Assembly: GCA_913044215.1 (NCBI GenBank)
Contig: CAJWOT010000001.1
Coordinates: forward strand, 1 to 50,752
Reading direction: 5' to 3'
Length of the DNA: 50,752 nucleotides
DNA from: an uncultured Rhodospirillaceae bacterium
Lineage (GTDB): Bacteria > Pseudomonadota > Alphaproteobacteria > UBA8366 > GCA-2717185
Part shown: piece after piece, positions 15,599-29,801 of the stretch
How the letters are laid out: the number at the start of each line of letters is the position of its first letter
Position numbering within the stretch: the first letter of the stretch is position 1
Position numbers and translations under genes: made by a program
The notes under the pieces: model-generated
Told to the model about the DNA's origin: nothing
The model's input: the letters and a program-made list of their open reading frames with translations, nothing else
The model's database searches: none

Positions 15599-15649
15599 CA
15601 GAGCGCCTACTGATTTGCTGATGAACCTCGGACCGCAATCTAACGCAGG

Positions 15650-16318
15650 CTAGGCCGCAATCGTCCCGACATCGTCCGGTACGATCAGGGATGCTGCGGT
15701 CCGCGCGACAATGTCGTCAGGCGTGAAGCCGGGTGCGACTTCTTCCAGAACGAAGCCCTGATCTGTCACCGCAATCACCGCCATCTCGGTGAACACCTTG
15801 GTGACGCAGGCCTTCGTCGTCAGCGGATAGGTCAGGTCTTCGACCAGCTTTGGTGTGCCGTCCTTGTCGGTCTGGCTCATGGTGATGAAGACGCGCTGCG
15901 CGCCGACCGCGATGTCCATCGCGCCGCCGATGCCGCCGACATGGCGGTCGGGCAGGCGCCAGTTGGCAAAATCGCCACTATCCGCAACCTGATAGGCACC
16001 GAGGATCGCCGCATCGAGCCGGCCGCCGCGGGCCACGACGAAGGAGTCCGCGTGGTGCACCAATGCCGCGCCTTCGATAAGGGTGATCGGGCCCTTACCG
16101 GCGCTCATCAGGTCGGTGTCGACATCTTCGTCCGCCGGGCGAGGCCCCATGCCGATGATGCCGTTCTCGCTATGAAACAGGATATCGCGCCCCTCGGGGA
16201 TGTAGTTGACGGCCAGGGTTGGGATGCCGAGGCCGAGATTGACGAGCCAGCCATCCTCCAATTCGGCGGCGACCCGTTTGGCGATCTGCTCGCGGCTCAA
16301 TCCTCTGCGCTCACTCAT
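15650..16318 (-). CDS. 3-oxoacid CoA-transferase, subunit B
   Basis: 'NLGLGIPTL...FHSENGIIGMGP' (catalytic Glu motif). The start at 16318 overlaps the subunit A stop by 8 nt. Confidence 0.9.
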   Translation of the reverse strand: MSERRGLSREQIAKRVAAELEDGWLVNLGLGIPTLAVNYIPEGRDILFHSENGIIGMGPRPADEDVDTDLMSAGKGPITLIEGAALVHHADSFVVARGGRLDAAILGAYQVADSGDFANWRLPDRHVGGIGGAMDIAVGAQRVFITMSQTDKDGTPKLVEDLTYPLTTKACVTKVFTEMAVIAVTDQGFVLEEVAPGFTPDDIVARTAASLIVPDDVGTIAA

Positions 16319-17024
16319 GCCAGGCGCCCTCCCAGGCTTCGGGTTTGTAGCGGCCGGTGACGACATAGCGGTCGACGAAGACGCCCGGCGTGATGATCTC
16401 GGCCGGTGCCAGGTCACCGAGCGCGACCTCCGCGTCGACCTCGACGATGGTGTGTTTCGCGGCCATGGCCATGACGGGGTTCATGTTCTGCGAGGCCAGG
16501 CGGTAGATCAGGTTGCCGCGCGGATCGACCTTGTGCGCCTTGATCAGCGCGACATCGCCGGGCAGGGCGGTCTCGACGATATATTCCTGGTTGCCGACCA
16601 TATGGATGGGTTTGCCTTCAGCGATCTGCGTGCCGACCCCGCTGGGGGACAGGATACCGCCCAGTCCGGCGCCCGCAGCCCGCATCCGCTCCGCTAGGAT
16701 ACCTTGGGGCACGATTTCCAGATCAACCTTGCCGGCTTTATAGAGTTCCTTGAAGACGTCCGATTCCCGGCCCCAAGGGAAGCTCACGATGACCTTGGCG
16801 ACGCAGCCTTTTTCCAGCAGGCGGGCGACCCCGAAGCGGCCTGCGCCGGAACTGTTGTTCACGACCGTTAGGTCGCGCAATCCGCGTTCGCAGACTCCAT
16901 TGATAAGTTTCTCGGGAATGCCCGAAAGGCCGAAACCGCCCACCAGCACCGTATCACCATCCTTGAGGCGGTCGAGTGCCGTGTCGATGGAGTCGAACTT
17001 CTTCTGCTTCATGTCCTGCTGCAT
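16311..17024 (-). CDS. 3-oxoacid CoA-transferase, subunit A
   Basis: 'DGDTVLVGGFGLSGIPEKLI...'. The start is either 17024 (MQQD) or 17012 (MKQKK). Confidence 0.9.
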   Translation of the reverse strand: MQQDMKQKKFDSIDTALDRLKDGDTVLVGGFGLSGIPEKLINGVCERGLRDLTVVNNSSGAGRFGVARLLEKGCVAKVIVSFPWGRESDVFKELYKAGKVDLEIVPQGILAERMRAAGAGLGGILSPSGVGTQIAEGKPIHMVGNQEYIVETALPGDVALIKAHKVDPRGNLIYRLASQNMNPVMAMAAKHTIVEVDAEVALGDLAPAEIITPGVFVDRYVVTGRYKPEAWEGAWHE

Positions 17025-17142
17025 CCCCCGGTGGCCCCCGGAACGGTAGCGCACTGCCTCTGGCGCCTCAAATCCCCACGGTGGACAAGCCGGCTGCAAT
17101 GTCAGAGTTTGTCGGCGCTCTTATCGAAAGGTAACCGATCCG

Positions 17143-17631
17143 ATGAACGCTTGTCCCTGCGGCTCCGGCAAAACGCTCGACGAATGTTGCGGCCAATATT
17201 TCGAAACTCTGGCCGCGCCGACGGCACTTGTCTTGATGCGCTCGCGGTACACGGCGCATGTGCTCGGCAAGGCGCAGTATCTGCACGACACATTGTCGAC
17301 GAAGCAGCGCGTCGGTTTCGACGTCGCGGAGTACGAAGCGCATCATGGCGAAATCACCTGGACTGGGCTGGAGATCCGCGGCACCTCCGGCGGCGGCGAA
17401 GAGGACGAGGCGGGGACGGTAGAGTTCGTCGCCCGCTGCAAGGACAAGGACGGTCCCGGCATGCAGCATGAGCTTTCTTCTTTCATCCGGGAGGAGGGCC
17501 GTTGGGTCTATGAGGACGCGGTCCCGAACCCGAAACCGGCGACCCGCACGGTGCAGAAGGTCGGCCGCAACGAACCGTGCCCCTGCGGCTCCGGAAAGAA
17601 ATACAAAAAATGCTGCGGCAGGGCGGCTTAG
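17143..17631 (+). CDS. ychJ: YchJ-family protein with SEC-C metal-binding motifs at both ends
   Basis: N-terminal '[14 protein letters not shown]' and C-terminal '[14 protein letters not shown]'. Confidence 0.85.
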
Positions 17632-17643
17632 GAGGGGGAAGGT

Positions 17644-18078
17644 ATGGCAACCGAAGCCTGGACAGGAACGTACGAGGAGCTGCCCCTTGGCGCGTCGGAA
17701 ACCAGTTCGCAATTGATCGACGGCGGCGCGATCGACAAATTCGCTGACGCGATTCAGAGCTTCAATCCGATCCATATGGATGGCGAATGGGCGCGCGAGA
17801 ACACGCCGTATCCTGATCGGATCGCGCATGGCGTGATGACCACGGCGCTGATGTCGAAACCGCTGGTGCAGTTCTGCGAGCGTTACAAGATCCGCACCGC
17901 GTTGTTGTCCTCGTCCTCAAAATATATTCGCGCCGTCGTCGCCGGCGACACGGTGACGACGGAAATCCGCTTGGCGGAGAAGACGGATCAGAAAAAGCGC
18001 ATCCGCTTCGAGGTCGAGTCGAAGAACCAGAAGGGCGAGGTCGTGATGGTCGGCGAATTGCTGGAGCAGTGCCTCTAA
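17644..18078 (+). CDS. MaoC-like (R)-hydratase/dehydratase, hotdog fold
   Basis: 'FADAIQSFNPIHMDGEWARENTPYPDRIAHGVMT'. Confidence 0.85.
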   Translation: MATEAWTGTYEELPLGASETSSQLIDGGAIDKFADAIQSFNPIHMDGEWARENTPYPDRIAHGVMTTALMSKPLVQFCERYKIRTALLSSSSKYIRAVVAGDTVTTEIRLAEKTDQKKRIRFEVESKNQKGEVVMVGELLEQCL

Positions 18079-18110
18079 AGCGGTGTGTCGGCTTTGGCCG
18101 AAAGCGGCCC

Positions 18111-19022
18111 CTAATTCGTGCGATGGAACGGTCTATCGCCGGCGACCGTCACCCGGTGCCCGTAGCGTTCGTCCGGCCAGTAGTCCCACATCGCGAGATG
18201 CTGGGTGCAGCGATTGTCCCAAAAGGCGATCGAGTTTTCCCGCCACTGATAGCGGACCTGAAATTCCGGCCGTTTCATATGCTGGAATAGGAAGGTCAGC
18301 AGCGCGTCGCTCTCCTCTCGTTCCATGTCCAGAATGGTCGAGGTAAACGTCTCGTTGACATAGAGTGCCTGACGGCCGGAGACGGGGTGGGTACGAACGA
18401 CCGGGTGTATGGCTGTCGGGAAAGACATGTCGTCGTCGGTTACGCCCTTGTCGGAATAGCGATCGCGAAAGGCGTGTTCCGACTCGTGCAGGGCCTGGCA
18501 ATCGCAAAGAAACGCTTTCATCTTTTCCGACAAGGCGTCGTAGGCGGCGTACATATTGGCGAACAGGGTATCGCCACCCGAGCTGGGGGTGCGATGAATT
18601 TGCAGCATCGTGCCGAGCGGCGGTTCCTCGTCGCAGGATACATCGGTATGCCAATCGGCGCCGTTGTTCACGAAAGACTCGCCGTGCGTGTGAATGACGA
18701 AGAGTTCCGGATGGTCCTCGTTCTTCGCCGCTGCCGGATGCACGTGAAGCGGGCCGAACCGCTTGGCGAAGGAAATTTGCTGTTCCGGCGTCAGTTCCGG
18801 CTGATCCCGGAAGAACAGGACATTGTGGTTGGCGAGTGCCCGGCCGAGATCATCGATCTGCGCCGCGGAGACGGGCTTGGTCAGGTCTACTCCTTCCACT
18901 TCGACGCCGATGACTCGGGTGACCGGCGTCACGCGGATCGTGTCATATACGGTGTCCTGGCGCGCATTCGACAGGGTTTGCGCCCGGTCCAGTTTGCCTT
19001 CATGCAACGGTCGCATTTCCAT
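18111..19022 (-). CDS. Taurine/sulfonate-type TauD/TfdA Fe(II)/2OG dioxygenase
   Basis: 'WHTDVSCDEEPPLGTMLQ...GGDTLFANM...' and 'FWDNRCTQH'. Confidence 0.9.
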   Translation of the reverse strand: MEMRPLHEGKLDRAQTLSNARQDTVYDTIRVTPVTRVIGVEVEGVDLTKPVSAAQIDDLGRALANHNVLFFRDQPELTPEQQISFAKRFGPLHVHPAAAKNEDHPELFVIHTHGESFVNNGADWHTDVSCDEEPPLGTMLQIHRTPSSGGDTLFANMYAAYDALSEKMKAFLCDCQALHESEHAFRDRYSDKGVTDDDMSFPTAIHPVVRTHPVSGRQALYVNETFTSTILDMEREESDALLTFLFQHMKRPEFQVRYQWRENSIAFWDNRCTQHLAMWDYWPDERYGHRVTVAGDRPFHRTN

Positions 19023-19128: not shown

Positions 19129-20149
19129 CTAGGCGGCGCGGATCGATTCCAGGAAGTTGTCGACTTGCTGCCGCAGGGCCTTCCCTTGTTGGGAGAGCGT
19201 GTCCGCGGCATCCAGAACTTGGCTGGCAGCCTGTCCGGTTTCACCGGCAGCCTCGTTCACCTGTGCGATGTTGCCCGTGATTTCATTCGTTCCCGCCGTT
19301 GCCTGTTGAACGATCGATGCAATCTCCCGCGTTGCCGAGCCTTGTTCGTCGACTGCGTTGGAGATTTCCGTGGATGTCTCGCTGATTCGGCCAATGACGT
19401 CGGATATCCGGCCTATCACCGATATGGCATCATCGGTTTCGCCTTGAATTTGCGAAATTTGGGAACTTATTTCTTCGGTCGCTTTTGCCGTCTGCGTTGC
19501 GAGGGATTTGACCTCCTTGGCGACCACGGCAAACCCACGGCCTGCATCGCCGGCACGGGCGGAATCGATCGTTGCGTTAAGCTCCAGAAGGTTGGTCTGC
19601 GCGGCGATATCGGTGATCAGATCGATGACCTCACCGATTTTGTTGACCGTTTCGGCGAGTTTCTTGATTTTGTTATTGGTCGCGCTGGCTTCCGCAACCG
19701 CGACTTCGGCAATTTTCGACGATTTACCGACATGTTTTCCGACCGTGCCGACGGATGACGAAAGCTGTTCGGTCGCGGACGCAACCGTTTGCATGTTCGT
19801 TGATGTTTCGTCAGTCGTGGCCGCGACGGCGGCGGACCGCTGGTTCGTTTGATTGGCGGCGTCCGACATAGACGTTGCGAGCTCATTCAGGTGTCCGGTC
19901 GAACCGGTCAAAGACTCGACGACCGTCAGGACATTCTTCTCGAACGAGTCGGCCATCGCGAGGACTTCGCGCTTGCGCTACGCGGCTGCCGCCTCGTCCT
20001 GTTTCTGTTTTTCGTCGCGCGCTCTTTTTTGTTCCTGGCGCAGGTCTTCCGCTTGGCTCAGGTTGTCCTTGAAGAAGATGATCGCCTTGGTCATCGCGCC
20101 GATCTCGTCCCGCCGGCGGGTCGGTTTGATTTCGATCTCCATATCGCCG
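19129..20149 (-). pseudogene. Methyl-accepting chemotaxis protein remnant: second HAMP helix plus signalling domain, no sensor or TM region, one in-frame TAG
   Basis: ORF 19978..20346 ends '...GDMEIEIKPTRRRDEIGAMTKAIIFFKDNL...DEAAAA' (HAMP). An in-frame TAG sits at 19978..19980. ORF 19129..19956 continues in the same frame with '[41 protein letters not shown]' (MCP hairpin core). Confidence 0.8.
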
Positions 20150-20836
20150 TCCGGAATGACAGGCAACACAGTTCGCCTTGTTGTTGAACAAGTCGAAGCC
20201 ATGTTTTGCGGTATCCGAAATCGCGTTTTCATCGCTGGCGACCCAGCGCTCAAACGGCGCGACGCCGCTGACAACCGTCCGCTCGAAGGTGGCAATCGCT
20301 TTGGCGATGTTTTCCACCGTAACCCCTTCGCCCGGGAAGCTGACATTGAACAGCGTGCCGTACTCCGGGATCGACTTCAGTTCAGAGACGATGCTTTCCA
20401 TGTTCTGGTTCATTTCGATCGGCGCCGACATCGGGCCGAGCTCTTGCTCTTCTAGCGTTTCGAACCGTCCGTCCCACATGAGCTGTTCCGACCAGGCCAG
20501 ATTCAGAATCGTCGGCGTGCGGCGGCCCAAACGCGTCATCGTGAGGCCGATTCATTTCGGCAAACCGTCACCCCAAGAGAAGCTTGGGTTGTGGCAGGTT
20601 GCACAAGAAATGTAGTTGGCGCCGGAAAGGCGGTGGTCGAAGAAGAGCTTCCGGCCTAGTTCCGCTTTCTCTGCGGAATAGGGGTTCTCTTCGGGGAATG
20701 GAATAGCCGTCGGCCGGATATATTCCTTTTTCCATTCTTCTCGTGACTTCGCCTCCGCTAGCGCCGTCGTCGCGGTCGCCAGAATGGAGACTCCGGTAAT
20801 CGCAACGAAAGCCGTTGCTGCGAATTTTCCGAGCAT
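20150..20836 (-). pseudogene. Di-haem cytochrome c peroxidase/MauG-family remnant: in-frame TGA, 3' third deleted
   Basis: Signal peptide plus first haem site 'CATCHNPSFSWGDGLPK', then TGA at 20552..20554. The same frame continues 'IGLTMTRLGRRTPTILNLAWSEQLMWDGR...FERTVVSG...KANCVACHSG' (second CxxCH). Homology stops there, at the junction with the MCP frame. Confidence 0.8.
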
Positions 20837-21054: not shown

Positions 21055-22212
21055 CTATATACTGAGGTCTAACAGATTGTAGTCCTTCATACTGGCCTTT
21101 GCGGCGCTGTCCCAGACCGGCCATTCTCCGGATTCCACGAAGGGCTGATAGGGAAAGGGAACTTCCTCCGGAAACCGCTGGCGCCGTGCGTCGATTGCGT
21201 AACCGATAACGCGAGAACGATCGCGAATTCGGGCATCGTCGTAGACACCGGGCGCATTGTGAATGCCACCACCAGAGACGCCGAGCACCGATCTACGGCG
21301 ATGGCACCCGAAATTAAGGGTCACGCGCCAGTCCGAACTGGTGTTCGCAAAAGACCCGTGCAGGCACTGCCGGTTGGTTATCGCGAGGTCACCTGGGCCG
21401 CATATGAAGGGTACGGCGTCCGGTAGCCGTTCGCTTCCCGCTTCCGCGACCCTTTGTTTGATATCGATCTTGCCGAGTTTGTGCGATCCGGGAACGACCC
21501 ATAGCCCGTTCGCAGGCGTGCAGCCATAAAGCTGCGCCATGAAATTGAACCCGTGGCTGCACTCATCCCAGTCCGGGCTGTCCCAATGGGTAACGCCATC
21601 CTGATGCCAGGCTACCGAAGCCCCGCGGCCGGGTTCCTTGATGAAAATCGCGTCGGAGAAGGGGGTGAAGTCGGGGCCATTGACCGCCGCGGCGATTGCC
21701 AGCAGATTCGGGTGTCCGGAGACGCGCAAGCAGGCTTCGGAGAACTGCAATGCGCCTAAGATCAAATAGACGATGTCCTTCGGCGCATCGGCCGCCGGTG
21801 TCGGCTCAATCATCTTTACCGGATGACGGCCATTTGCGAGATCTGTCCCGCCAAACGGGTCGGCCAACGGCTTTGACCAGAACAGGGTGGGCGCTTCACA
21901 GTCCGCGCCTAATGCGGGCCGGCCTTTCGTATCGACCAGAGATCCCTTTTCGGCAGGGAGACGGTCGAGAATATCGTGCAGGTCAGCTTCGATGTCTTGC
22001 AGCTCGTCAGAGTCAATGACGCCTTCGAATATGTAGAAGCCACACCGCCAATAGGCTTCGAGGATTTCTGGATGAATCTGACCTTCATAGGTGTATCGAA
22101 CGGGGCCGCGGTTGCCGAGGGCGAAAGCCCGTTCCTCACCGTCCCGCAAATAGGCCTGCATGGCAGCCTCTTCGGTGCCGTAATCCGTTCCTGTCGCAGC
22201 AATCGCGCTCAT
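21055..22212 (-). CDS. Phytanoyl-CoA dioxygenase (PhyH) family protein
   Basis: 'GASVAWHQDGVTHW' (HxD) and 'ITNRQCLHGSFANTS'; 385 aa. Confidence 0.8.
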   Translation of the reverse strand: MSAIAATGTDYGTEEAAMQAYLRDGEERAFALGNRGPVRYTYEGQIHPEILEAYWRCGFYIFEGVIDSDELQDIEADLHDILDRLPAEKGSLVDTKGRPALGADCEAPTLFWSKPLADPFGGTDLANGRHPVKMIEPTPAADAPKDIVYLILGALQFSEACLRVSGHPNLLAIAAAVNGPDFTPFSDAIFIKEPGRGASVAWHQDGVTHWDSPDWDECSHGFNFMAQLYGCTPANGLWVVPGSHKLGKIDIKQRVAEAGSERLPDAVPFICGPGDLAITNRQCLHGSFANTSSDWRVTLNFGCHRRRSVLGVSGGGIHNAPGVYDDARIRDRSRVIGYAIDARRQRFPEEVPFPYQPFVESGEWPVWDSAAKASMKDYNLLDLSI

Positions 22213-22258: not shown

Positions 22259-23197
22259 CTAGCGCGCACGGCTTTTCGGCCAACATTCACGTAAAGCGGT
22301 CAGAAACGCCGAGGCCGCGGGGGCGATGGCCCTATCGCGACGTGTGATGATGCCCAGTCGCTGTACGGCGCCGGAGGCACGAAGGGGGCGCGTTTCGGTA
22401 TCGGCAGGGTAGGGGCCGGCAAAGTAGGTTTCCGGAACGATTGCGACCCCTAACCCTTGCGCGACCAGACGAAACGCCGTTGTGAACTGTCCGACGGTAA
22501 AATGCGAGTCGAGGGTGACGCCGGCCGCCGCGCCGGCGGCATCCAATGCCCGGCGGGCAGCAGCCTCCGTCGGCATGGATATCAGGCGTTCGCCCGCCAA
22601 GTCGTTCAACGTCAGTGTTCTTTGGGATAGATAGGGGTGGCCAGCCGGCAGAACCACGCGGAATCCGTTTTCGCCAAGCGATTCCGCTTCGAGCGGGCCG
22701 CCAATGTCCGTCGTGTCGCCCAGCCCGAAATCTGCGGAGCCGCTGCGCACTTCCTCCAGCACGTTCGTTTGGACGCTCTCGCGCAGGTCGATGGCGATTC
22801 TGGGATAACGCTCCGCGAAACGGGCAAGCGCGGTCGGCAGTACACCATGGGCGATGGTCATGAGGCTCGCGATGACAACGCGTCCCCGCTCGACATCTGC
22901 CAGTTCACGCAAATTACGGAGACCGAGGCCGAGATCGCTCAGCAATCGCTCGGCGAGGGGCATGAATTCGCTTCCCGCCACGGTCAAGGATACCCGCCGC
23001 GTGGTCCGATTAAATATTTCTGTACCAAGAATATCTTCGGCGCGGCGGACAGTCCGGGTCAACGTCGGTTGTGTAACGCCAAGGTCTGCAGCCGCGGCAG
23101 CGAAATTGCGATAGCGGGCGACCGCCAACAGGGCGCGCAGGTGTCTCGTGCTCAAATCGACATCGGGACTGACATTGTCCAATGATACCGGATCCAT
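22259..23197 (-). CDS. LysR-family transcriptional regulator
   Basis: N-terminal wHTH 'LRALLAVARYRNFAAAAADLGVTQPTLTRTVRRAEDILG' plus a LysR substrate-binding domain. It is divergent from the selenoprotein operon. Confidence 0.9.
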   Translation of the reverse strand: MDPVSLDNVSPDVDLSTRHLRALLAVARYRNFAAAAADLGVTQPTLTRTVRRAEDILGTEIFNRTTRRVSLTVAGSEFMPLAERLLSDLGLGLRNLRELADVERGRVVIASLMTIAHGVLPTALARFAERYPRIAIDLRESVQTNVLEEVRSGSADFGLGDTTDIGGPLEAESLGENGFRVVLPAGHPYLSQRTLTLNDLAGERLISMPTEAAARRALDAAGAAAGVTLDSHFTVGQFTTAFRLVAQGLGVAIVPETYFAGPYPADTETRPLRASGAVQRLGIITRRDRAIAPAASAFLTALRECWPKSRAR

Positions 23198-23372
23198 GCT
23201 CGGATTTTCCGGTTATTACATTTATGGTATTAAATAATCGTATTCGAAAATAATTGCATCAATTTAAATTGCGTTGGATATTCCGATGGTCGCACGCGAT
23301 GCGAAGTGGAAATTTCCTTTGCCGGAAGTTCGGCAGTAACATCTGGAACCTGCACTTTTGGAGGCTGGGACG

Positions 23373-24428
23373 ATGACGCTCATTTCGAAACGTTACGAGG
23401 TGGAGGACGTCCTCGCCGCGCAGGAATTCTACCACAGTCGCCAGTGGACGGACGGGCTTCCCGTGGTGCCGCCGACGCCGGAAGCAGTGCAGGCGTGCCT
23501 GGACTGGGTGATGATGCCGGCCGACCATCTGATCGGGATTGAGCCGGTCCGTGAGCGCGCCATTACTGCGGAGAAACTTGCCGTAAACGCCATCATGGCC
23601 GGTTGCTTGCCAATGCATTTTCCGGTTGTTGTGGCGGCGGTTACGGCCATGTTGGAAGAGCCGTTTTTGGTGCATGGGGCGACAGCCAGTACGGGCGGCT
23701 GTGCCGTTATGGTCGTCATAAATGGACCAATCCGACACGAACTTGGCTTGGACGGCACATTCAACGCGCTGGGATCCAGCGATCGCGGTACAACCGTGAT
23801 CGGTCGCGCGATCCGGCTTATCCTAGGCAATCTGCTCGATGTCCGGCCGGGTCAGATTGACCGATCGACTCTCGGTCACCCCGGCAAGCTCAGCTACTGC
23901 ATCGCCGAAGATGAGGAGAACGCCCCCTGGCCATCGCTCGCCGAGGACCGGGGCATTCCAAAGGAGGCGTCCGCTGTCACCGTTATGGCTGCCCTTGCCC
24001 CCCGGCAATTCATGAATGAGTGGACGACCGAGCCGAAGGAAATCCTCGATACCTATTGTGCAGAGATAAAGGCGAACTTGCGCCATTACTCGATCTACCC
24101 CGGAAACTACGCGATCGTCGTGCCACCGCAGTTGCGGACGCATTTCCAGAATGCGGGCTGGTCGCGCCGGGATATCCAGGAATACGTCTTCGAAAATGCG
24201 CGCATTTATCGCCGAGAATGGGCTGACGTCGGTAAAGCAAACGTCGTCGGCAAGCGCGGCGATCAAGAGTATCCGGCGTTACCGGATCCCGAACATTTGC
24301 TGATCATCGCGGCCGGTGGACCGGCGGGCGGTTTCGGCGCGGTTATAGCCCCTTGGCTGGGGCACAAGAGCAGGGCGGTGACGATTGCGATCGGCGCTTG
24401 TCTCGATTGCGAGCCGCCGGCGAATTGA
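23373..24428 (+). CDS. Conserved protein of unknown function; first gene of the selenoprotein operon, C-terminal CxxC
   Basis: 351 aa with a GGAGG RBS 8 nt before the ATG at 23373. GC-rich codon use matches the neighbours. It ends '...AIGACLDCEPPAN'. I cannot assign a family from memory. Confidence 0.75.
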   Translation: MTLISKRYEVEDVLAAQEFYHSRQWTDGLPVVPPTPEAVQACLDWVMMPADHLIGIEPVRERAITAEKLAVNAIMAGCLPMHFPVVVAAVTAMLEEPFLVHGATASTGGCAVMVVINGPIRHELGLDGTFNALGSSDRGTTVIGRAIRLILGNLLDVRPGQIDRSTLGHPGKLSYCIAEDEENAPWPSLAEDRGIPKEASAVTVMAALAPRQFMNEWTTEPKEILDTYCAEIKANLRHYSIYPGNYAIVVPPQLRTHFQNAGWSRRDIQEYVFENARIYRREWADVGKANVVGKRGDQEYPALPDPEHLLIIAAGGPAGGFGAVIAPWLGHKSRAVTIAIGACLDCEPPAN

Positions 24429-24458
24429 GTTTGTAGATAGAAAGGAGAGGTCCCTAGG

Positions 24459-24983
24459 ATGGAAATACTCGATCCTACACATGAGGCGGATGCTGGCGGT
24501 TTTGCCTTGGCGGCACGCCTCTCAGCACTGCAGGGTGCCACGGTCGGCATCATCTCGAATGGGAAGAAGAATACGATTCCGTTCTTCGACGCGTTCGAGA
24601 GCGAGTTGAAAGAAACATACGGGGTTGCCGAGGTTGTCCGCCGGACAAAATCGAACTACAGCGCCCCTGCCGATGCCCATCTGGTGGAAGAAGCGCAAGG
24701 CTGGGACGCCGTCGTCGCCGGTATAGGCGATTGAGGCAGTTGCTCGTCGTGCAGTTTGCATGACGCAGTGATCGGCGAGAAGATCGGCAAACCGGCGGTC
24801 AGTATCATGACCACCAAATTCGTGAGTGCCGCCGAACTCATGGCCCGCGTTTTGGGCGCGGACGGTTATCCGTTCGTGGTCATCGACCATCCCATCAGCA
24901 GTGCCTCTGGAGAGACGCTGGATGATTGGGCTCGGACGGCGGCTGGCCAGAGCGTTGATCTGTTGATTGGCGCAAACCGCTAG
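24459..24983 (+). CDS. UGSC-type selenoprotein (Sec at codon 92, UGA 24732..24734)
   Basis: ORFs 24459..24734 and 24756..24983 are in the same frame and separated only by TGA. Translation across it gives '...WDAVVAGIGD-U-GSCSSCSLHDAVIGEKIGKPAVSIM...'. A strong AAAGGAGAGG RBS precedes 24459. The downstream ORF has only a TTG and no RBS. A SECIS-like hairpin follows. Confidence 0.8.
24745..24765 (+). promoter_or_regulatory. Candidate bacterial SECIS minihelix
   Basis: CGUCGUGCA-GUU-UGCAUGACG forms a 9-bp stem (one G-U pair) with an apical loop containing G and U. It starts 11 nt after the UGA. The apical part UGCA-G.U-UGCA resembles the E. coli fdhF minihelix as I recall it. Confidence 0.6.
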
Positions 24984-24986
24984 CCG

Positions 24987-26156
24987 ATGCCGGAATCCAC
25001 CACTGTCGGTCCGCTTGCCGGCTATAAGATCGTCGAGATCGCTGGCATCGGACCGTCGCCCCTATGCTGTTCCCTGCTGGCCGATATGGGGGCGGATATC
25101 GTTCGTATCGACCGAAAGGGGCTGACCGGTCTCGGCTTCGAATACGCCGGTGTGAAAGCGGATATCCGTCGCCGTGGACGCCCGTCGATTGCGGTTGATT
25201 TGAAGCATCCGAAGGGTGTCGAAACGGTTCTGCGTTTGATCGAGAACGCCGACGCGTTGGTTGATCCGATGCGCCCCGGCGTGATGGAGCGGCTCGGACT
25301 CGGGCCTGACGAATGCTTGGCGCGCAATCCGAGGCTGATCTACGGACGCATGACCGGATGGGGACAGGATGGACCGCTTGCCCCAGTCGCAGGCCATGAC
25401 ATCAACTACATTTCACTATCCGGGGTATTGCACGCCATAGGCACGCGCGAACGGCCGGTGCCGCCGCTCAACGTGATCGGCGATATGGGCGGTGGCGCCA
25501 TGTTCCTGGTCATGGGGCTGCTCGCCGGCATGCTGGAGGCGCGAAATTCCGGCAAGGGGCAGGTCGTCGATGTCGCGATGACGGAAGGATCGGCTTATCT
25601 GGCGATGGCCTGCTTTGGGCTCGCCTCTTCCGGTCATTGGACCGACACCAGGGAAAGTAATCCGCTGGATGGCGGCGCACCGTTCTGGCGTTGCTATGAA
25701 ACCAAAGACGGGAAGCACATATCGATAGGGGCCGTCGAGGAGAAGTTCTACGCCATACTATTGGAGACACTTGAACTTGATCCTACAGACCTGCCCGGGC
25801 AACTCGATCCGGAGGGGTGGCCGGAGATCATCGAGACCCTGGACGCGAAATTCAAAGAAAAGACCCGGGACGAATGGTGCGACATCATGGAAGGCACGGA
25901 TATCTGCTTTGCACCGGTCTTGAGCTTCAGCGAGGCGCCACACCATCCGCATAACCAGGCGCGAGGCAGCTTTGTCGAGGTCGAGGGAATCGTTCAGCCG
26001 GGACCTGCACCGCGTTTCAGCCGGACGCCGTCCAGGGTAAAAGGCGGACCACCGGATTTCGGTGCGCAGACGGAAACAGCCTTGGCGGCTTGGGGATTTT
26101 CCGAATCCGAGATCGATATGTTGAAATCGGAAAAGGCGATCGGGCGCGAACAATAG
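24987..26156 (+). CDS. CaiB/BaiF family III CoA-transferase (alpha-methylacyl-CoA racemase-like)
   Basis: 'LAGYKIVEIAGIGPSPLCCSLLADMGADIVRIDR' and later 'NVIGDMGGG'. The ATG is 3 nt after the selenoprotein stop. Confidence 0.9.
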   Translation: MPESTTVGPLAGYKIVEIAGIGPSPLCCSLLADMGADIVRIDRKGLTGLGFEYAGVKADIRRRGRPSIAVDLKHPKGVETVLRLIENADALVDPMRPGVMERLGLGPDECLARNPRLIYGRMTGWGQDGPLAPVAGHDINYISLSGVLHAIGTRERPVPPLNVIGDMGGGAMFLVMGLLAGMLEARNSGKGQVVDVAMTEGSAYLAMACFGLASSGHWTDTRESNPLDGGAPFWRCYETKDGKHISIGAVEEKFYAILLETLELDPTDLPGQLDPEGWPEIIETLDAKFKEKTRDEWCDIMEGTDICFAPVLSFSEAPHHPHNQARGSFVEVEGIVQPGPAPRFSRTPSRVKGGPPDFGAQTETALAAWGFSESEIDMLKSEKAIGREQ

Positions 26157-26360
26157 CGGTGCCGCGCCACGCACCTTAATTTCGTTCATATCTCCCCCAT
26201 TTGGGGATATTCCGGCCGGCTTTTCGCGGTAAATTATCCTTGGTGCTGCGACGTGCGGCGGGACAGGTCGCTTACGCGATCTTAACCACGCCGTTCGAGA
26301 CTGGTCGGGGGTTAAGACCGGTGTCGCAGTTGAGGCGGCGCGAATTGTCGGGGCGGCGGT

Positions 26361-27785
26361 ATGGCGCATTCATTTTCATTCTTATCCGACCGAGAAGCGC
26401 GCCTTTTGGCGACGTCCGGGGATACAAGCTTTACCGGTGTGGATGAGGAGCTTGTAGACGCGAAGCCGCTGTTCAGCCTCTTTGCCGTCGATGATCGGGC
26501 GACGGTCATGGCGGCGCTGACGTAGGCTAACGCACAAGCGGAAATCGAACTGCCGGAGCTGCGGATCCTCAGCGGGGGCGATCAAGAAGCCGCATTCGAC
26601 ATAACGATCCAACCGGCAGGACCCGACAAATTCTGGATTCTGTTTGTCTTGTCGCCCAACCAGCCGGGTCCGGCGAGGCCGGCGCAAAAGGAAGACTTCC
26701 TCGACGCGGTTGCCGAGCGTCTGGGTGTGGCCGACGCGCCAGCCATGCAGATGAGCATGGTCGATTTCGAAGCGTTGCGCGATACCGAGCTGAGGGAAAA
26801 ACTTGGTGATGATGCGATGCAGGATTTCCGGTCGAGCATCGTAGGTGCTTTGACGGAAGTCGCGGTCGATGGGCAGGTCTGCAGGCTGGATGCCACGAGC
26901 CACGGTGTATTGAGCCCGATCGATCAGGATCAGGACCAAATGATAGCGACGGTTGCAGAGGCGACCGAGGAATTCGGGGTTAGCGAATCCGATCTCGGGA
27001 CTGCAGTTGAAAGCGTGGAACTCGATGTCGATGCCGATGCAGAGCCTGAAGATCTCCGCGGACTCTTATCTCATACAGCACATAAATTTTATCAAACTGT
27101 TCGCAAAGGGACGCCCTTTGGCACGGCCAAGATCAGCGAAGTTTCGGAGGAGATCGCCCAGGCGATACAGCTCATCGAGACCGCGCTGGAGCGTGGCGAT
27201 ATTTCTGTTACGTCGCGGGAAGTCCGGCGCATCACAGATGGGGGTATTTCCCTGTACCTCGCCCATGGCGCTCTGGTCGTCGGTAATGAGATCGTTCCCG
27301 CTGACCAGCTTCTGGCCATGGAGGATCACCCGGAGTTGGCCGGTCGTCATGATCGCTACATGGTCGCGATTGCGTTGGAGACCTTCGGTCAAGCCGATCC
27401 GAGTACCCCCGTAATTGTCGATTTTGCACTCCCGACCCTGGAATCCGGTTAAGCGAGCCGGATTGCCGAAGAAATGGCGGGACTGGGCTATCGGATCGGT
27501 TTCCGGCCGCATGGGCTCGACATGGCGTCCAGCCGCTCGAAAGGCGCGCGGCAGGTTTATCAGCTGTTAAAGGAAGGGGTGCCGGTCTGGCTGATGAATT
27601 TCGCCACTGCGATTTCCAAGACCCGCCGGCTGCGCGGCGCCTATGTCAAAGTATCGGCGACCTTTTTGCGCGATCTGAGCTTCCAGCCTGAGCGCAACAA
27701 GCTGATTTCCCGTTTTCTGAAGATTTGGCACGACGTGGAAGTGAGCCTTATCGTTTCTGCACTCGATCTTCGCCACGAAGCCTGA
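26361..27785 (+). pseudogene. Degenerate PAS-GGDEF-EAL signalling gene with two in-frame stops (TAG 26523..26525, TAA 27450..27452)
   Basis: A single frame runs from the ATG at 26361. It covers a PAS-like block ('LFSLFAVDDRATVMAALT*ANAQAEIELPELRIL...KFWILF') and a GGDEF-like block lacking GGDEF ('MSMVDFEALRD...DGQVCRLDATSHGVL'). EAL-like blocks follow ('ALERGDISV...', '*ASRIAEEMAGLGYRIGF...YVKVSATFLRDL'). The catalytic signatures are degenerate. Confidence 0.6.
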
Positions 27786-27791
27786 ATTGAC

Positions 27792-28595
27792 TTACCGTAT
27801 CGCGAATGTCATGGAGGCCCAAAGACTTTCCCAATCCGCCTTCCTATCGGGTGCGGGATCGAACATGTGGACCGTGTTGAGCAGATAGGCGCCGCGCGAC
27901 GGCAACGATATCGCGGCGCGGCCCTCAGCGTCTGTCACGGTCTGGGTCGGATTCTTCGGGTCCGCTGCGCTGAAGGTCGTGATCGTCATGCCGGCACTCG
28001 GTTTTCCGTTCAATAACAGGCGCACAGGCAAGTTTGCACCGGGTGACAGCATATAGGGATTTTGTTCCGCGACCAGTTCGAAGGGGAGGCCCAGGGCTCG
28101 ATCGGTCCCGGTCGCATCGCCGACGCCAAGCAGCAGCTTGGTATTTCGGGCGTAGCTCTCGACTATTCCCGTTGCCGGTTTTCCCAACGTGCCGTGCTGC
28201 CGCGCCAACGCTTCATAGCCGATTTTTTGGGCATACTTGTCAAAATCGGCGCGTGTTTCGAAGGTATGCGGTTCGTGTGCGCCAAAATAGCCAAAGACCT
28301 TGAGGCCGGGTTTGTCGAACTTGATCCGTACAGCCGGCAGGTCGCCTTCGAACCCACGGACCTTTCGTTCCCGGCCTTGGTCGAGAACGATATAGCGGGG
28401 GTGCCATTCCGTGACAAAGGGTAGTTCGTCGCCTTTGAAATGCTGACCGTAAGTGTGGCGGATTGCGATCCTAGTATCCGTCGACGGCGTGTAGCTGCTG
28501 GGTGCAAGCCAGAACTCATGCGCGTGCGCGTTGCTGGCGCAGATTGCGGCAAAAAGCAGCAAGACCGGGATCGTAGCTTTACGGAGACGGAGCAT
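27792..28595 (-). CDS. DUF4198-family periplasmic protein (nickel/cobalt-uptake associated)
   Basis: Signal peptide 'MLRLRKATIPVLLLFAAICASNAHAHEFW' and the typical 'HEFWL' start of the mature domain. Confidence 0.8.
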   Translation of the reverse strand: MLRLRKATIPVLLLFAAICASNAHAHEFWLAPSSYTPSTDTRIAIRHTYGQHFKGDELPFVTEWHPRYIVLDQGRERKVRGFEGDLPAVRIKFDKPGLKVFGYFGAHEPHTFETRADFDKYAQKIGYEALARQHGTLGKPATGIVESYARNTKLLLGVGDATGTDRALGLPFELVAEQNPYMLSPGANLPVRLLLNGKPSAGMTITTFSAADPKNPTQTVTDAEGRAAISLPSRGAYLLNTVHMFDPAPDRKADWESLWASMTFAIR

Positions 28596-28667
28596 AGGGA
28601 TACACACAACAGTGATGTCGTTCTCGGCGGCACGTTATTCCCGAAGCGTCGAAGGGTAAACAGATTC

Positions 28668-29801
28668 ATGGTCATGAGATTGATCGCGCTTCTGATGTTG
28701 GCCGTCGCGCTTCTCGGCCAGCCGCATGGCGCTTTGGCCCATAAGATCTTTCCGGCCACGGCGACTGTAACCTTCGATGGCGACAACCGATACCGGATCG
28801 ATATCAAGACCAATGTGGAAGCCCTGATCGCCGGTATCGGGTCGGCGCACGAAGACACCGATCAATCGCCGCAAGCTGAACGGTACAAGGCGCTGCGTGC
28901 GTTGAGTGCCGAGGATCTGAGGGCGGAATTTGACGGGTTTTCCGAGCGCTGGCTCGATGGTGTCGCCGTGCGATTCGATGGCAATCGCGTGTCGCCGCGC
29001 ATTGTGGAACTGATCGTGCCGGAGACGGGCGATGTCGGCCGTGCACGTATCTCGACGATACGCATCGGCGGGCAGGTTCCCGACGGGGCGGAAAGTTTCG
29101 GTTGGGCCTACGACAAATCATATGGCTCGAGCGTGTTGCGGCTGGTTCATGCGGCAAAGGACGAGATGACGACGGCCTGGCTTAAGGACGGCGCGGCAAG
29201 CGATCCGATACCGCTCGCCGGTATGGTGCCGCGGACCGTCTTCGAAACGGCGGTGGATTACACGGTTCTCGGCTTCACGCATATCCTGCCCTTTGGTCTC
29301 GATCACATCCTCTTCGTGTTGGGGCTATATCTGCTCAGCACGCGCGTGAAACCGTTGCTGGTTCAGGTAACCGCTTTCACCGTGGCCCATACGGTGACCC
29401 TGGCGCTCGGGCTATACGGGGTTGTGACGATTTCGCCTGACATCGTCGAACCGCTGATCGCGCTGTCGATCGTTTATGTCGCGGTTGAGAATATTTTGAC
29501 GCCCAGATTGACCGTGTGGCGGCCCTTTATCGTGTTCGCTTTCGGTCTGCTGCACGGGCTCGGGTTCGCCGGCGTCCTGCAGGAAATCGGGCTGCCGCGC
29601 GACGATTTCGTGACAGGGTTGATCGCCTTCAATGTCGGTGTGGAGTTCGGCCAGCTCGCGACGATCGCGATCGCCTGGTTCCTGACGGGGCTATGGTTTC
29701 GTGAACGAAGCTGGTATCGCACTGGGATCGTCTATCCCGGTTCCGCGGGGATCGCGCTGATCGGTGCCTACTGGACGGTGGAAAGGGTTTTCTTCGCATA
29801 A
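28668..29801 (+). CDS. HupE/UreJ-family membrane protein with an N-terminal periplasmic domain
   Basis: Signal peptide, then a ~190-aa soluble part, then 'GFTHILPFGLDHILFVLGL...AHTVTLALG...LLHGLGFAG...NVGVEFGQL'. Confidence 0.8.
   Translation: MVMRLIALLMLAVALLGQPHGALAHKIFPATATVTFDGDNRYRIDIKTNVEALIAGIGSAHEDTDQSPQAERYKALRALSAEDLRAEFDGFSERWLDGVAVRFDGNRVSPRIVELIVPETGDVGRARISTIRIGGQVPDGAESFGWAYDKSYGSSVLRLVHAAKDEMTTAWLKDGAASDPIPLAGMVPRTVFETAVDYTVLGFTHILPFGLDHILFVLGLYLLSTRVKPLLVQVTAFTVAHTVTLALGLYGVVTISPDIVEPLIALSIVYVAVENILTPRLTVWRPFIVFAFGLLHGLGFAGVLQEIGLPRDDFVTGLIAFNVGVEFGQLATIAIAWFLTGLWFRERSWYRTGIVYPGSAGIALIGAYWTVERVFFA

What the first reader, a model, noticed from the sequence alone, without database searches (positions are those of the whole stretch)
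23198..26156. LysR-flanked operon: unknown CxxC protein + UGSC selenoprotein + family III CoA-transferase, in an aerobic catabolic context
A compact operon runs divergent from the LysR gene (22259..23197).
- 23373..24428 encodes 351 aa that I cannot assign to a family; it ends in C-L-D-C.
- After a 30-nt gap with a strong RBS comes 24459..24983, a 174-aa protein with Sec92.
- After a 3-nt gap comes 24987..26156, a CaiB/BaiF CoA-transferase.

As far as I recall, 'UGSC-containing' selenoproteins are known only as a sequence family from marine metagenome surveys, with no assigned function. NCBI uses the name 'UGSC family (seleno)protein'. The tight coupling suggests a substrate-inducible selenol/thiol redox module acting on an acyl-CoA or amino-acid-derived compound. 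This is the best candidate in the window for an undescribed system.
Basis: partly seen in the sequence, partly recalled or inferred. Interest (0 to 1): 0.8.

Follow-up and report, generated by a model that had tools for sequence, protein, structure and literature searches.

The report
Orphan selenoprotein with its obligate partner
The locus really encodes a selenocysteine protein of the abundant but functionally unknown UGSC family, and comparison with other genomes shows it almost always sits beside one uncharacterised 350-residue cysteine protein, so the two most likely form a two-part selenium-dependent redox enzyme, which gives a testable lead on this family's function.

Summary
A LysR gene faces a tight three-gene operon: a 351-aa unassigned protein (ORF-A), a 174-aa UGSC selenoprotein and a family III CoA-transferase-fold gene.

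- **Sec92:** the in-frame TGA is followed by a hairpin that is 90.5% paired, with compensatory changes, across 76 homologues.
- **The pair:** 70 of 74 informative genome loci with an ORF-A relative carry a UGSC gene. All 70 have TGA, and 60 lie directly downstream. Five of five look-ups started from UGSC found ORF-A adjacent.
- **ORF-A:** a very large family (4607 clusters at 50% identity) with no Pfam, NCBIfam or PDB sequence match. Long members are fused to UGSC (25 of 49), AhpC/Redoxin (5) or a ferredoxin-thioredoxin-reductase catalytic domain (2).
- **UGSC fold:** the model is flavodoxin-like, not thioredoxin-like as proposed in 2008.
- **Third gene:** an alpha-methylacyl-CoA racemase orthologue (381 bits against 125 for the best true transferase). 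It is shared only with the closest relative.

Best reading: a two-component selenol/thiol-dependent oxidoreductase of unknown substrate. The UGSC family is already known, but its function is not. The acyl-CoA link is weak.

The parts
22259..23197 (-). LysR-type transcriptional regulator (312 aa), divergent from the operon
   Evidence: It carries PF00126 HTH_1 and PF03466 LysR_substrate. No NCBIfam equivalog cutoff is reached. Related LysR genes (214-532 bits) lie next to the pair in L001, L008, L012-L014, L018, L022 and L038.
23198..23372 (.). 175-bp AT-rich divergent intergenic region; presumed promoter/operator
   Evidence: Read directly from the sequence. It holds an imperfect palindrome at 23236-23255. 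The simple scan found no sigma-70 consensus inside it. The regulatory role is inferred, not shown.
23373..24428 (+). ORF-A: 351-aa protein of a large uncharacterised family; proposed substrate-binding catalytic subunit. Cys78 lies in the NAxMAGC motif, Cys176 in YCIAE, and a CxxC near the C-terminus at 343-346.
   Evidence: - It has no Pfam, NCBIfam or PDB sequence match.
- Homologues: 7357 in the 5.8-billion-protein set and 4607 clusters at 50% identity.
- It is adjacent to UGSC in 70 of 74 informative genome loci.
- Family members are fused to UGSC, Redoxin or FTR-B domains.
- Conservation of the cysteines is given.
24459..24983 (+). UGSC-family selenoprotein, 174 aa, with Sec92 encoded by TGA at 24732-24734 in the motif G-D-U-G-S-C-S-S-C
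   Evidence: - It matches PF24696 at 3.3e-48 over its full length, and NF041046 at 120.8 bits against a cutoff of 125.
- TGA sits at the equivalent position in all 70 genome-locus partners.
- Cys forms occur in actinomycetes.
- The model of a 54%-identical Cys homologue has pLDDT 93.8 and a flavodoxin-like alpha/beta fold, with the Sec position in the beta3-alpha3 loop.
24739..24772 (+). SECIS-type hairpin starting 5 nt after the UGA. The apical loop GUU is at 24754-24756. The conserved 9-bp core is 24745-24753 / 24757-24765.
   Evidence: - The window hairpin folds at -22.9 kcal/mol.
- The formal count gives 90.5% paired and a covariation score exceeding 500 of 500 shuffles, with CG<->GC and UA<->GU/AU switches.
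- There is no Rfam match, as expected for a gene-specific bacterial SECIS.
24987..26156 (+). Alpha-methylacyl-CoA racemase orthologue (family III CoA-transferase fold), 389 aa; a lineage-specific third gene of the operon
   Evidence: - It matches PF02515 at 1.9e-78.
- Against M. tuberculosis MCR (1x74, 8rmw) it scores E 6e-113 and 381 bits over its full length. The best true CoA-transferase scores 125 bits. The GHDINY and GDxGGG motifs are conserved in the printed alignment.
- All NCBIfam CoA-transferase equivalogs fall far below their cutoffs.
- An orthologue occurs only in L008.
26158..26175 (+). Terminator-like GC-rich hairpin followed by a T-rich tract; probable end of the operon
   Evidence: It comes from a consensus scan only. 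The number of such sites in the region does not exceed the shuffled expectation, so this is weak evidence.

Best explanation
The conserved unit here is a two-gene module: ORF-A (351 aa) plus the UGSC selenoprotein (174 aa, Sec92). I propose that the two form a two-component selenol/thiol-dependent oxidoreductase.

- ORF-A is the larger, substrate-binding catalytic subunit. It uses the almost universally conserved Cys78 (NAxMAGC). In this subfamily Cys176 and a CxxC near the C-terminus assist.
- UGSC is a small flavodoxin-like redox protein. Its U92-x-x-C95 pair attacks the oxidised or substrate-bound cysteine of ORF-A and ends as an internal selenenylsulfide.
- That bond is re-reduced by general disulfide reductants (thioredoxin-like or ferredoxin-thioredoxin-reductase-like modules). 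In some lineages these are fused to ORF-A.
- In this window the module is placed under a divergent LysR regulator and co-transcribed with an alpha-methylacyl-CoA racemase orthologue. This is a lineage-specific recruitment into a catabolic pathway.

Shown: the gene structure, Sec decoding signals, the near-obligate pairing, the fusions and the UGSC fold class. Inferred: physical interaction, direction of electron flow, the role of Cys78, and that the reaction is a reduction. The substrate is unknown.
For: - **Sec decoding.** The locus shows an in-frame TGA, a full-length UGSC profile match, a covarying SECIS hairpin, and Cys homologues elsewhere. SelA and SelB, identified by Pfam, lie directly beside the pair in L002/L003. 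BLAST-cluster homologues of them lie near the pair in L016, L023, L037 and L038.
- **Pairing.** Eighty genome loci were chosen only for an ORF-A relative (35-93% identity) and span many phyla. Seventy carry UGSC and 6 of the other 10 are truncated contigs. Sixty partners are immediately downstream on the same strand, and all 70 have TGA.
- **Reverse test.** Five of five look-ups started from UGSC found an ORF-A homologue adjacent.
- **Fusions.** Of 49 long ORF-A family members, 25 carry UGSC, 5 carry AhpC/Redoxin (a CxxC was seen in P0255) and 2 carry an FTR catalytic domain. These were the only Pfam families found on them.
- **Three-module chain.** The FTR-ORF-A fusion has a TGA-containing UGSC gene immediately upstream.
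- **Cysteines.** Cys78 is conserved in all but 1 of 85 loci. The CxxC near the ORF-A C-terminus co-occurs with the third Cys of U-G-S-C-x-x-C in 39 of 41 cases.
- **Selenium preference.** Sec strongly predominates over Cys (255 against 21 in GOS, PMC2398784). This argues that the selenol is chemically important.
- **Operon structure.** The gaps are 30 and 3 nt, and no terminator-like site was found inside the operon.
Against: - No experiment exists for any member.
- The ORF-A model is poor (mean pLDDT 68.9, N-terminal half below 50), so the active-site geometry and the distance from Cys78 to the partner are unknown.
- Cys176 is replaced by Val in a Methylomirabilota/Rokubacteria clade. Cys78 is Gly in L019 and P0233. 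A fixed two-cysteine mechanism in ORF-A is therefore excluded.
- No dedicated reductant is conserved in the neighbourhood. Thioredoxin lies near the pair in only 2 of 87 loci.
- Four complete loci have ORF-A without UGSC within 8 kb.
- The CxxC / third-Cys co-occurrence is confounded by phylogeny.
- Near-obligate Sec could equally indicate covalent catalysis at carbon rather than simple redox shuttling.
Confidence: 0.5

Rival explanations
1. Glycine-reductase-like chemistry. UGSC plays the part of selenoprotein A or PrdB. Its selenol attacks a carbon (or S/N) centre of a substrate held by ORF-A, forming a selenoether or selenenyl intermediate. This is resolved by Cys95, giving a reductive C-X bond cleavage. 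Thioredoxin-like or FTR-like modules then re-reduce the Se-S bond.
For: - UGSC is a small alpha/beta selenoprotein with UxxC, and Sec is almost obligatory.
- The larger partner has its own conserved residues: D27, N72, C78, R138, N140, R145 and E179. The role of the two arginines in binding an anionic substrate is my inference.
- Thioredoxin-type modules are fused to ORF-A or adjacent to it, as the thioredoxin system is coupled to glycine reductase (established knowledge).
Against: - There is no sequence relation to GRDA, GRDB or Gly_reductase families, even at E <= 10.
- No protein-C-like or pyruvoyl-proprotein hallmark could be tested.
- The hosts are mostly aerobic heterotrophs. Known Grd/Prd systems are anaerobic Stickland enzymes.
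Confidence: 0.2
2. Pathway-specific reading. The three genes form one unit that acts on a 2-methyl-branched or other acyl-CoA. ORF-A/UGSC carries out a reductive step on the thioester substrate, and the racemase supplies the correct stereoisomer.
For: - The three genes are tightly spaced (gaps of 30 and 3 nt), and the arrangement is conserved in L008.
- CoA-thioester enzymes lie near the pair in many loci: family III paralogues in 11 of 80, MaoC, ECH, CoA_binding, a PaaK-like ligase, thiolase and HpcH.
- A PhyH-family dioxygenase lies beside the LysR gene.
Against: - The racemase orthologue is found only in the closest relative.
- The other family III genes are distant paralogues at varying positions and strands.
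- No third gene is conserved across the 80 loci.
- Other loci show thiol-related or unrelated neighbours instead: AhpD-like CMD, MDMPI_N, RidA, SDR and DsbA-like.
- CoA enzymes are common in these genomes, so the enrichment is unproven.
Confidence: 0.15
3. Non-redox function. The Sec/Cys pair acts as a nucleophile or carrier without net electron transfer. Examples are a cis-trans or other isomerase, a lyase on a thiol conjugate, or sulfur/selenium trafficking.
For: - Neighbours in some loci are thiol-dependent non-redox enzymes (MDMPI_N/DinB-like, RidA).
- No dedicated reductant is conserved nearby.
- The ORF-A fold search gave only weak hints, to hydro-lyase-like and YjgF/Toblerone-like folds.
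Against: The only Pfam families found on long ORF-A members, besides UGSC, are classical disulfide reductant modules (Trx-like Redoxin with CxxC, FTR catalytic domain). These would be pointless without electron transfer.
Confidence: 0.1
4. The UGA is a genuine stop. The locus would then encode a 91-aa fragment and a separate downstream ORF, or a pseudogene.
For: Automatic gene callers split the gene at the TGA in almost all public contigs. No Sec machinery gene lies within this window (and the Pfam scans).
Against: - The profile match runs across the TGA over the full length.
- TGA sits at the same codon in 70 of 70 genome partners, while Cys occupies it in actinomycetes.
- The SECIS hairpin covaries.
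- selA and selB lie adjacent in relatives.
Confidence: 0.02

Closest known systems
UGSC family (seleno)protein (Pfam PF24696, NCBIfam NF041046); the 'UGSC-containing protein' of the Sargasso Sea/GOS selenoproteome surveys
   Same: The window protein gives a full-length profile match. It has the U-G-S-C motif, a SECIS hairpin and a marine alphaproteobacterial host. The 2008 GOS paper also noted fusion to an unnamed domain it called 'Unknown_1'. ORF-A is very probably that domain, because UGSC-ORF-A fusions are common.
   Different: Nothing distinguishes this copy from the family. What the surveys did not report is the near-obligate pairing with ORF-A. The 'likely Trx-like fold' they proposed is not supported by the model, which is flavodoxin-like. 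I could not confirm that 'Unknown_1' is ORF-A, because the published figure panel is held only as an image.
Thioredoxin-dependent reductases with a dedicated or fused redox partner (e.g. methionine sulfoxide reductases fused to Trx domains; the FTR-thioredoxin relay)
   Same: A catalytic protein with an essential cysteine is paired with or fused to a small CxxC/UxxC redox protein. Alternative fusions to Trx-like and FTR-like modules also occur.
   Different: ORF-A has no sequence relation to Msr, Prx, ArsC or any Pfam family. The partner has a flavodoxin-like rather than thioredoxin fold and is almost always a selenoprotein. The substrate is unknown.
Glycine / D-proline reductase (selenoprotein A GrdA, GrdB/PrdB with UxxC)
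   Same: A small redox-active selenoprotein is paired with a larger substrate-specific protein. A UxxC motif is present, a thioredoxin-type system acts as the presumed reductant, and Sec is strongly preferred over Cys.
   Different: There is no detectable homology to GRDA, GRDB or Gly_reductase. No protein C is present. The hosts are aerobic or facultative heterotrophs from many phyla rather than Stickland fermenters.
Alpha-methylacyl-CoA racemase (MCR of M. tuberculosis, PDB 1x74; human AMACR)
   Same: Gene 3 aligns over its full length at 381 bits and keeps the GHDINY and GDxGGG catalytic motifs. It belongs to the family III CoA-transferase fold.
   Different: Activity and substrate are untested. 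Its association with a selenoprotein module has no counterpart in known MCR loci, as far as I know.

Membership tests
UGSC family (PF24696 / NF041046) | Match to the family profile above its curated threshold | tested here: met
   Pfam gives 164.5 bits against a gathering score of 25, over profile positions 1-170 of 172. The NCBIfam equivalog gives 120.8 bits against a cutoff of 125, so it is narrowly missed, with U written as C.
UGSC family (PF24696 / NF041046) | U/C-G-S-C motif at the conserved position | tested here: met
   The window protein has G-D-U92-G-S-C95-S-S-C98. The same motif with TGA occurs in all 70 genome-locus partners.
Bacterial selenoprotein gene (Sec decoding of UGA) | In-frame UGA with coding conservation on both sides and Cys-containing homologues | tested here: met
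   Searches show this. The actinomycete forms have TGC at the position.
Bacterial selenoprotein gene (Sec decoding of UGA) | SECIS stem-loop shortly downstream of the UGA with a conserved apical G | tested here: met
   The hairpin starts 5 nt after the UGA, and the loop is G-U-N in 76 sequences. It is 90.5% paired, and its covariation exceeds 500 of 500 shuffles and all slid controls.
Bacterial selenoprotein gene (Sec decoding of UGA) | Host has selA, selB, selC and selD | not testable with these tools
   None of these genes lies in the 50.7-kb window, and no tRNA was found. SelA and SelB lie next to the pair in relatives L002/L003.
Thioredoxin-fold oxidoreductase (proposed for UGSC in PMC2398784) | Thioredoxin fold | tested here: not met
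   The model (pLDDT 93.8) is a five-stranded alpha/beta/alpha fold. The best PDB matches are flavodoxin-like proteins (SpaF, lumazine synthase, PurE, RpiB, FMN reductases) at TM 0.48 or less. No thioredoxin-fold protein appears among the top 50.
Family III CoA-transferase (CaiB/BaiF, PF02515) | Match to PF02515 | tested here: met
   The match is 1.9e-78, at 264.6 bits.
Family III CoA-transferase (CaiB/BaiF, PF02515) | Closest to a characterised CoA-transferase, or reaches an NCBIfam transferase equivalog cutoff | tested here: not met
   The best transferase equivalog scores 110 bits against a cutoff of 522. The best solved transferase scores 125 bits, against 381 for MCR racemase.
Alpha-methylacyl-CoA racemase | Full-length similarity to MCR/AMACR with the catalytic His/Asp motifs | tested here: met
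   The match to 1x74 and 8rmw is E 6e-113 over query residues 7-370. GHDINY and GDxGGG are aligned and conserved. That these motifs hold the catalytic His126 and Asp156 is from my knowledge of the MCR structure.
Alpha-methylacyl-CoA racemase | Racemase activity on 2-methylacyl-CoA | not testable with these tools
   This needs an enzyme assay.
Glycine/D-proline reductase selenoproteins (GrdA, GrdB/PrdB) | Sequence membership in PF04723, PF07355 or PF09338 | tested here: not met
   None of these families appears even at E <= 10, for 8 UGSC members and 60 ORF-A members.
Class I fumarate hydratase / Fe-S hydro-lyase alpha subunit (fold lead for ORF-A) | Structural and sequence similarity; three cluster-binding cysteines | tested here: inconclusive
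   Foldseek gives 7xky_A at E 8.7e-4, but TM is only 0.29-0.33 and the model is low-confidence. hhalign of the ORF-A profile against E. coli TtdA gives probability 0.1. Only one or two cysteines are conserved family-wide.
LysR-type transcriptional regulator | N-terminal HTH_1 plus LysR substrate-binding domain, divergent from the target operon | tested here: met
   Searches show this. The selenium-metabolism LysR equivalog NF040786 is not reached (105 bits against 250).

The most novel reading that the evidence does not exclude
ORF-A plus UGSC is a previously undescribed class of two-component selenoenzyme. Its catalytic subunit has no recognised family and perhaps a new fold, and it uses a flavodoxin-like selenoprotein in the role that thioredoxin or selenoprotein A plays elsewhere. 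It is spread across at least ten bacterial phyla or major lineages. It would account for one of the four most abundant selenoprotein gene families in the ocean. Identifying its substrate would define a new selenium-dependent reaction in aerobic heterotrophs.
Probability: 0.45. Interest if true: 0.8.

Novelty: new member of a known kind. Interest (0 to 1): 0.62.

Why it matters
UGSC-containing proteins make up about 8% of marine selenoprotein genes (PMC9402790). A 2026 review still groups them with selenoproteins whose functions 'remain largely uncharacterized' (PMC13188914).

- The family comes with a fixed partner of an equally uncharacterised but very large family.
- That partner is alternatively fused to thioredoxin-like and FTR-like modules.

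Together these turn an orphan sequence family into a defined two-protein system with a testable mechanism.

Cys-form cassettes in cultured Amycolatopsis, Prauserella and Saccharomonospora, and a Sec form in Sheuella amnicola, offer cultured organisms in which to test it. The result also bears on why aerobic marine bacteria keep the costly Sec machinery. In several genomes selA and selB sit right beside this pair.

Tried and rejected
- **Family searches for ORF-A.** I tried Pfam and NCBIfam on the window protein, and Pfam at E <= 10 on 60 diverse members. I also tried PDB by sequence and by profile. All were negative.
- **ORF-A structure.** AlphaFold2 had only 62 fairly similar sequences, because the tool restricted what could be submitted. 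The model reached pLDDT 68.9. Its best fold hit, class I fumarate hydratase alpha, was followed up by hhalign against E. coli TtdA and found unsupported.
- **UGSC structure.** I modelled the 54%-identical Cys homologue P0122 instead.
- **Remote homology of UGSC.** No link to GrdA, GrdB or other families appeared.
- **Rfam search for the SECIS.** Nothing was found.
- **Identity of 'Unknown_1'.** I tried to confirm that the GOS 'Unknown_1' domain is ORF-A. The figure panel is an image, and the stored sequence supplement holds no matching motif.
- **Conserved third gene or reductant.** Clustering of 1098 neighbouring ORFs found none. Searches with TrxA, Redoxin and FTR queries found thioredoxin near the pair in only 2 loci.
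- **Functional names.** No public source gives a functional name for ORF-A. All say 'hypothetical', apart from one UniRef label 'Thioredoxin', which I judge unreliable.
- **Rejected ideas.** The CoA-transferase is not part of the conserved system. UGSC is not thioredoxin-fold. The UGA is not a stop.

Full report
**1. Observation**

The ORF list and the raw sequence reproduce every coordinate in the finding.

- LysR gene: 22259..23197 (-).
- ORF-A: 23373..24428 (+), 351 aa, with GGAGG 8 nt upstream of the ATG. It ends ...GACLDCEPPAN.
- A 30-nt spacer with AAAGGAGAGG follows.
- UGSC gene: 24459..24983. The in-frame TGA is at 24732-24734, so Sec is residue 92 in G-D-U-G-S-C-S-S-C.
- A 3-nt spacer follows, then 24987..26156 (389 aa).

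Profile searches gave these assignments:

- LysR: HTH_1 plus LysR_substrate.
- The small protein: Pfam UGSC (PF24696) at 3.3e-48 over the whole profile. NCBIfam 'UGSC family (seleno)protein' scores 120.8 bits, just below its 125-bit cutoff.
- The third protein: CoA_transf_3.
- ORF-A: nothing.

The window as a whole is an aerobic catabolic region. It holds TauD, PhyH, luciferase-like, Rieske and nitronate oxygenases, enoyl-CoA hydratases, a class I CoA-transferase, hydantoinase A/B and a molybdenum hydroxylase subunit. It has no tRNA and no Rfam hit. The nearest genome match is an uncultured marine Rhodospirillaceae MAG, with 93% ORF-A identity (L008).

**2. Is the UGA decoded as Sec?**

- The UGSC profile aligns across the TGA.
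- In the 5.8-billion-protein collection most homologues are roughly 95-aa N-terminal fragments, because gene callers stopped at the TGA. A few full-length Cys forms exist.
- A hairpin starts 5 nt after the UGA (-22.9 kcal/mol, loop GUU).
- I aligned the equivalent 60 nt from 76 distinct homologous loci. The 9-bp helix is 90.5% paired, against 49% or less in slid controls.
- Its covariation score (0.158) exceeds all 500 shuffles. Twenty-one cells carry changes on both sides, including CG to GC linked to a synonymous Leu codon change, and UA to GU or AU.
- selA and selB lie directly beside the pair in a Burkholderiaceae MAG. BLAST-cluster homologues of them lie near it in several other loci.

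I consider Sec92 established as far as sequence analysis can go.

**3. What is conserved around it?**

ORF-A has 7357 homologues at E <= 1e-3 in the large collection. It has 4607 clusters among 50%-identity representatives, 903 of them at 1e-30 or better.

*Search from the ORF-A side.* A genome scan using only ORF-A motifs returned 80 loci at 35-93% identity. They come from Alpha- and Gammaproteobacteria, Burkholderiales, Acidimicrobiia, Dehalococcoidia, Ktedonobacteria, Methylomirabilota/Rokubacteria, Binatia, Acidobacteriota, Myxococcota and SAR324.

I searched six-frame translations that read through TGA with a UGSC HMM.

- UGSC is present in 70 of the 80 loci.
- Six of the remaining ten are contigs that end at or just after ORF-A.
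- Four complete loci lack UGSC.
- In 60 of the 70 the UGSC gene is immediately downstream on the same strand.
- In 3 it is immediately upstream, in 5 it is separated by about one gene, and in 2 it is on the opposite strand.
- All 70 have TGA at the Sec codon.

*Search from the UGSC side.* Five of five look-ups showed an ORF-A homologue adjacent, confirmed by HMM at E 1e-92 or better.

The pair is a near-obligate module.

*No third partner.* I clustered 1098 neighbouring ORFs.

- Family III CoA-transferase-fold genes occur in 11 of the 80 genome loci, at varying positions and strands. They score only 72-154 bits against the window gene.
- The window gene's orthologue is present only in L008, at 803 bits.
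- LysR relatives flank the pair in about nine loci.
- The other neighbours are heterogeneous:
  - SDRs
  - TPP enzymes
  - amidohydrolases
  - HpcH aldolases
  - luciferase-like monooxygenases
  - TctC and ABC transport components
  - RidA
  - AhpD-like CMD
  - MDMPI_N
  - DsbA-like proteins
- Cultured Pseudonocardiaceae carry a Cys-form cassette: (PaaK-like ligase or Zn-ADH) - UGSC - ORF-A - 76-aa ORF - SDR.

**4. The third gene**

Against solved structures it matches M. tuberculosis alpha-methylacyl-CoA racemase at E 6e-113 (381 bits, full length). The GHDINY and GDxGGG motifs are conserved. The best genuine CoA-transferase scores 125 bits. All NCBIfam transferase equivalogs are far below their cutoffs.

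It is therefore best called an MCR/AMACR orthologue within the family III fold. It is a lineage-specific addition to the module. A weak terminator-like hairpin follows it at 26158-26175.

**5. Clues to mechanism**

*Fusions.* Among 49 long members of the ORF-A family, the Pfam families found were:

- UGSC, in 25 members;
- AhpC-TSA/Redoxin, in 5, with a CPTC motif seen in P0255;
- the ferredoxin-thioredoxin reductase catalytic chain, in 2, with CPC...CPC...CHC in P0244.

The FTR-ORF-A fusion also has a TGA-containing UGSC gene directly upstream. This gives a three-module arrangement reminiscent of ferredoxin -> FTR -> thioredoxin -> target.

*Conserved residues in ORF-A.* Family-wide conserved residues include D27-G-L-P30, T35, N72, G77-C78, R138, N140, G144-R145, N153, E179 and W186.

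- Cys78 is present in all but one of 85 loci.
- Cys176 is replaced by Val in one clade.
- Cys110 and the CxxC near the C-terminus define a subfamily that includes the window.
- That CxxC co-occurs with the third cysteine of U-G-S-C-x-x-C in 39 of 41 cases. This is confounded by phylogeny.

*UGSC fold.* A model of the 54%-identical Cys homologue is confident (pLDDT 93.8).

- It is a five-stranded alpha/beta/alpha sandwich.
- The Sec position lies in the beta3-alpha3 loop, at the helix N-terminus.
- PDB neighbours are generic flavodoxin-like proteins at TM 0.48 or less.
- None has a thioredoxin fold.

The 'likely Trx-like fold' of the 2008 survey is therefore not supported.

*ORF-A fold.* The model is poor (pLDDT 68.9). 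Its only sub-threshold match, class I fumarate hydratase alpha at TM about 0.3, was not supported by a profile comparison with TtdA.

**6. Interpretation**

The best-supported reading is a two-component selenol/thiol-dependent oxidoreductase.

- ORF-A binds the substrate and uses Cys78.
- UGSC provides the U92/C95 redox pair and ends as a selenenylsulfide.
- General or fused disulfide reductants recycle it.

The main rival keeps the same architecture but gives the selenol a covalent catalytic role, as in glycine or proline reductase. The near-exclusive use of Sec (255 Sec against 21 Cys in GOS; 70 of 70 here) makes this a serious alternative. No homology to Grd or Prd proteins was found.

A non-redox role is disfavoured by the nature of the fusion partners. 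A dedicated acyl-CoA role is possible for this particular operon but is not a property of the family. The substrate remains unknown.

**7. Relation to what is known, and novelty**

- The UGSC family has been catalogued since the Sargasso Sea and GOS surveys.
- It is in Pfam and NCBIfam.
- It makes up 8.2% of marine selenoprotein genes (PMC9402790).
- A 2026 review still groups it with selenoproteins whose functions 'remain largely uncharacterized' (PMC13188914).
- Only eight papers in the searchable library mention it, all of them surveys.
- The 2008 paper noted a fusion to an unnamed 'Unknown_1' domain. ORF-A is probably that domain. I could not verify this, because the figure is an image.

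The window's gene is thus a new member of a known family. What goes beyond the literature I could search is threefold:

- the near-obligate ORF-A/UGSC module,
- the spectrum of redox fusion partners,
- the flavodoxin-like fold.

**8. Verdict**

The selenol/thiol redox module holds, with ORF-A as partner. A conserved CoA-transferase partner does not, and the gene is a racemase orthologue.
- Interest is moderate to high. The locus is one ordinary instance of a widespread system, but that system is an unsolved and now experimentally approachable problem.

Noticed in passing
window 24987-26156: The 'CoA-transferase' is an alpha-methylacyl-CoA racemase orthologue, at 381 bits to M. tuberculosis MCR. 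A PhyH-family (phytanoyl-CoA dioxygenase-like) gene lies at 21055-22212, just beyond the LysR gene on the same strand as it. Both enzyme families act in branched-chain (phytanic/pristanic acid) catabolism in eukaryotes. The juxtaposition may be coincidental.
   Followed up: partly
L002/L003 2414-5847; also L016, L023, L037, L038: Selenocysteine synthase SelA and elongation factor SelB genes lie directly adjacent to the ORF-A/UGSC pair, and divergent from it, in a Burkholderiaceae MAG. BLAST-cluster homologues of them lie near the pair in four other loci. In those genomes UGSC may be a principal reason for keeping the Sec machinery.
   Followed up: partly
L089/L090 970-2935 (protein P0244): The arrangement is UGSC (TGA-split) followed by a fusion of a ferredoxin-thioredoxin-reductase catalytic domain to ORF-A. 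This implies a ferredoxin-linked variant of the system.
   Followed up: partly
proteins P0207, P0208, P0225, P0231, P0261, P0264: Proteins of about 710 aa consist of two tandem ORF-A domains. This suggests that ORF-A normally works as a dimer. I did not examine their neighbourhoods.
   Followed up: no
L006 8577-8807, L092 9035-9271, L093 9053-9283: A conserved 76-78-aa ORF with no Pfam match, followed by one or two SDR genes, comes directly after ORF-A in Pseudonocardiaceae. These genomes have the Cys form of UGSC. It may be an additional subunit.
   Followed up: no
window 19129-20539: Two overlapping minus-strand ORFs look like gene fragments or pseudogenes. One has only an MCP signalling domain (275 aa, no sensor or transmembrane part detected by Pfam). 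The other is a partial di-haem cytochrome c peroxidase (218 aa, matching profile positions 49-148 only).
   Followed up: no
window 14420-19022: This stretch holds two TauD/TfdA-family dioxygenases flanking class I CoA-transferase A and B subunits (15650-17099) and a 253-aa ORF with no Pfam match (17068-17829). It may be a separate catabolic cluster for a quaternary amine or a sulfonate.
   Followed up: no
window 26649-27452: A 267-aa acidic ORF with no Pfam match lies immediately downstream of the operon. DUF4198 and HupE/UreJ genes at 27792-29801 (a putative metal-uptake pair) follow it. The listed HupE ORF (453 aa) is probably over-extended at its 5' end, because the domain starts at residue 274.
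   Followed up: no
L094 5638-6456; L095 5604-6158; L072/L074/L080 upstream genes: Thiol-chemistry genes lie directly next to the pair in several distant loci. They are an AhpD-like CMD protein, an MDMPI_N/DinB-like protein, and DsbA-like proteins by my reading of the sequence. Glutaredoxin and DsbD_TM genes lie nearby in L094.
   Followed up: no
protein P0165: This public protein joins the C-terminal part of an ORF-A homologue to the N-terminal half of UGSC. It is most likely a frameshift or gene-call artefact across the short intergenic gap. It shows how automated annotation mishandles this locus.
   Followed up: no
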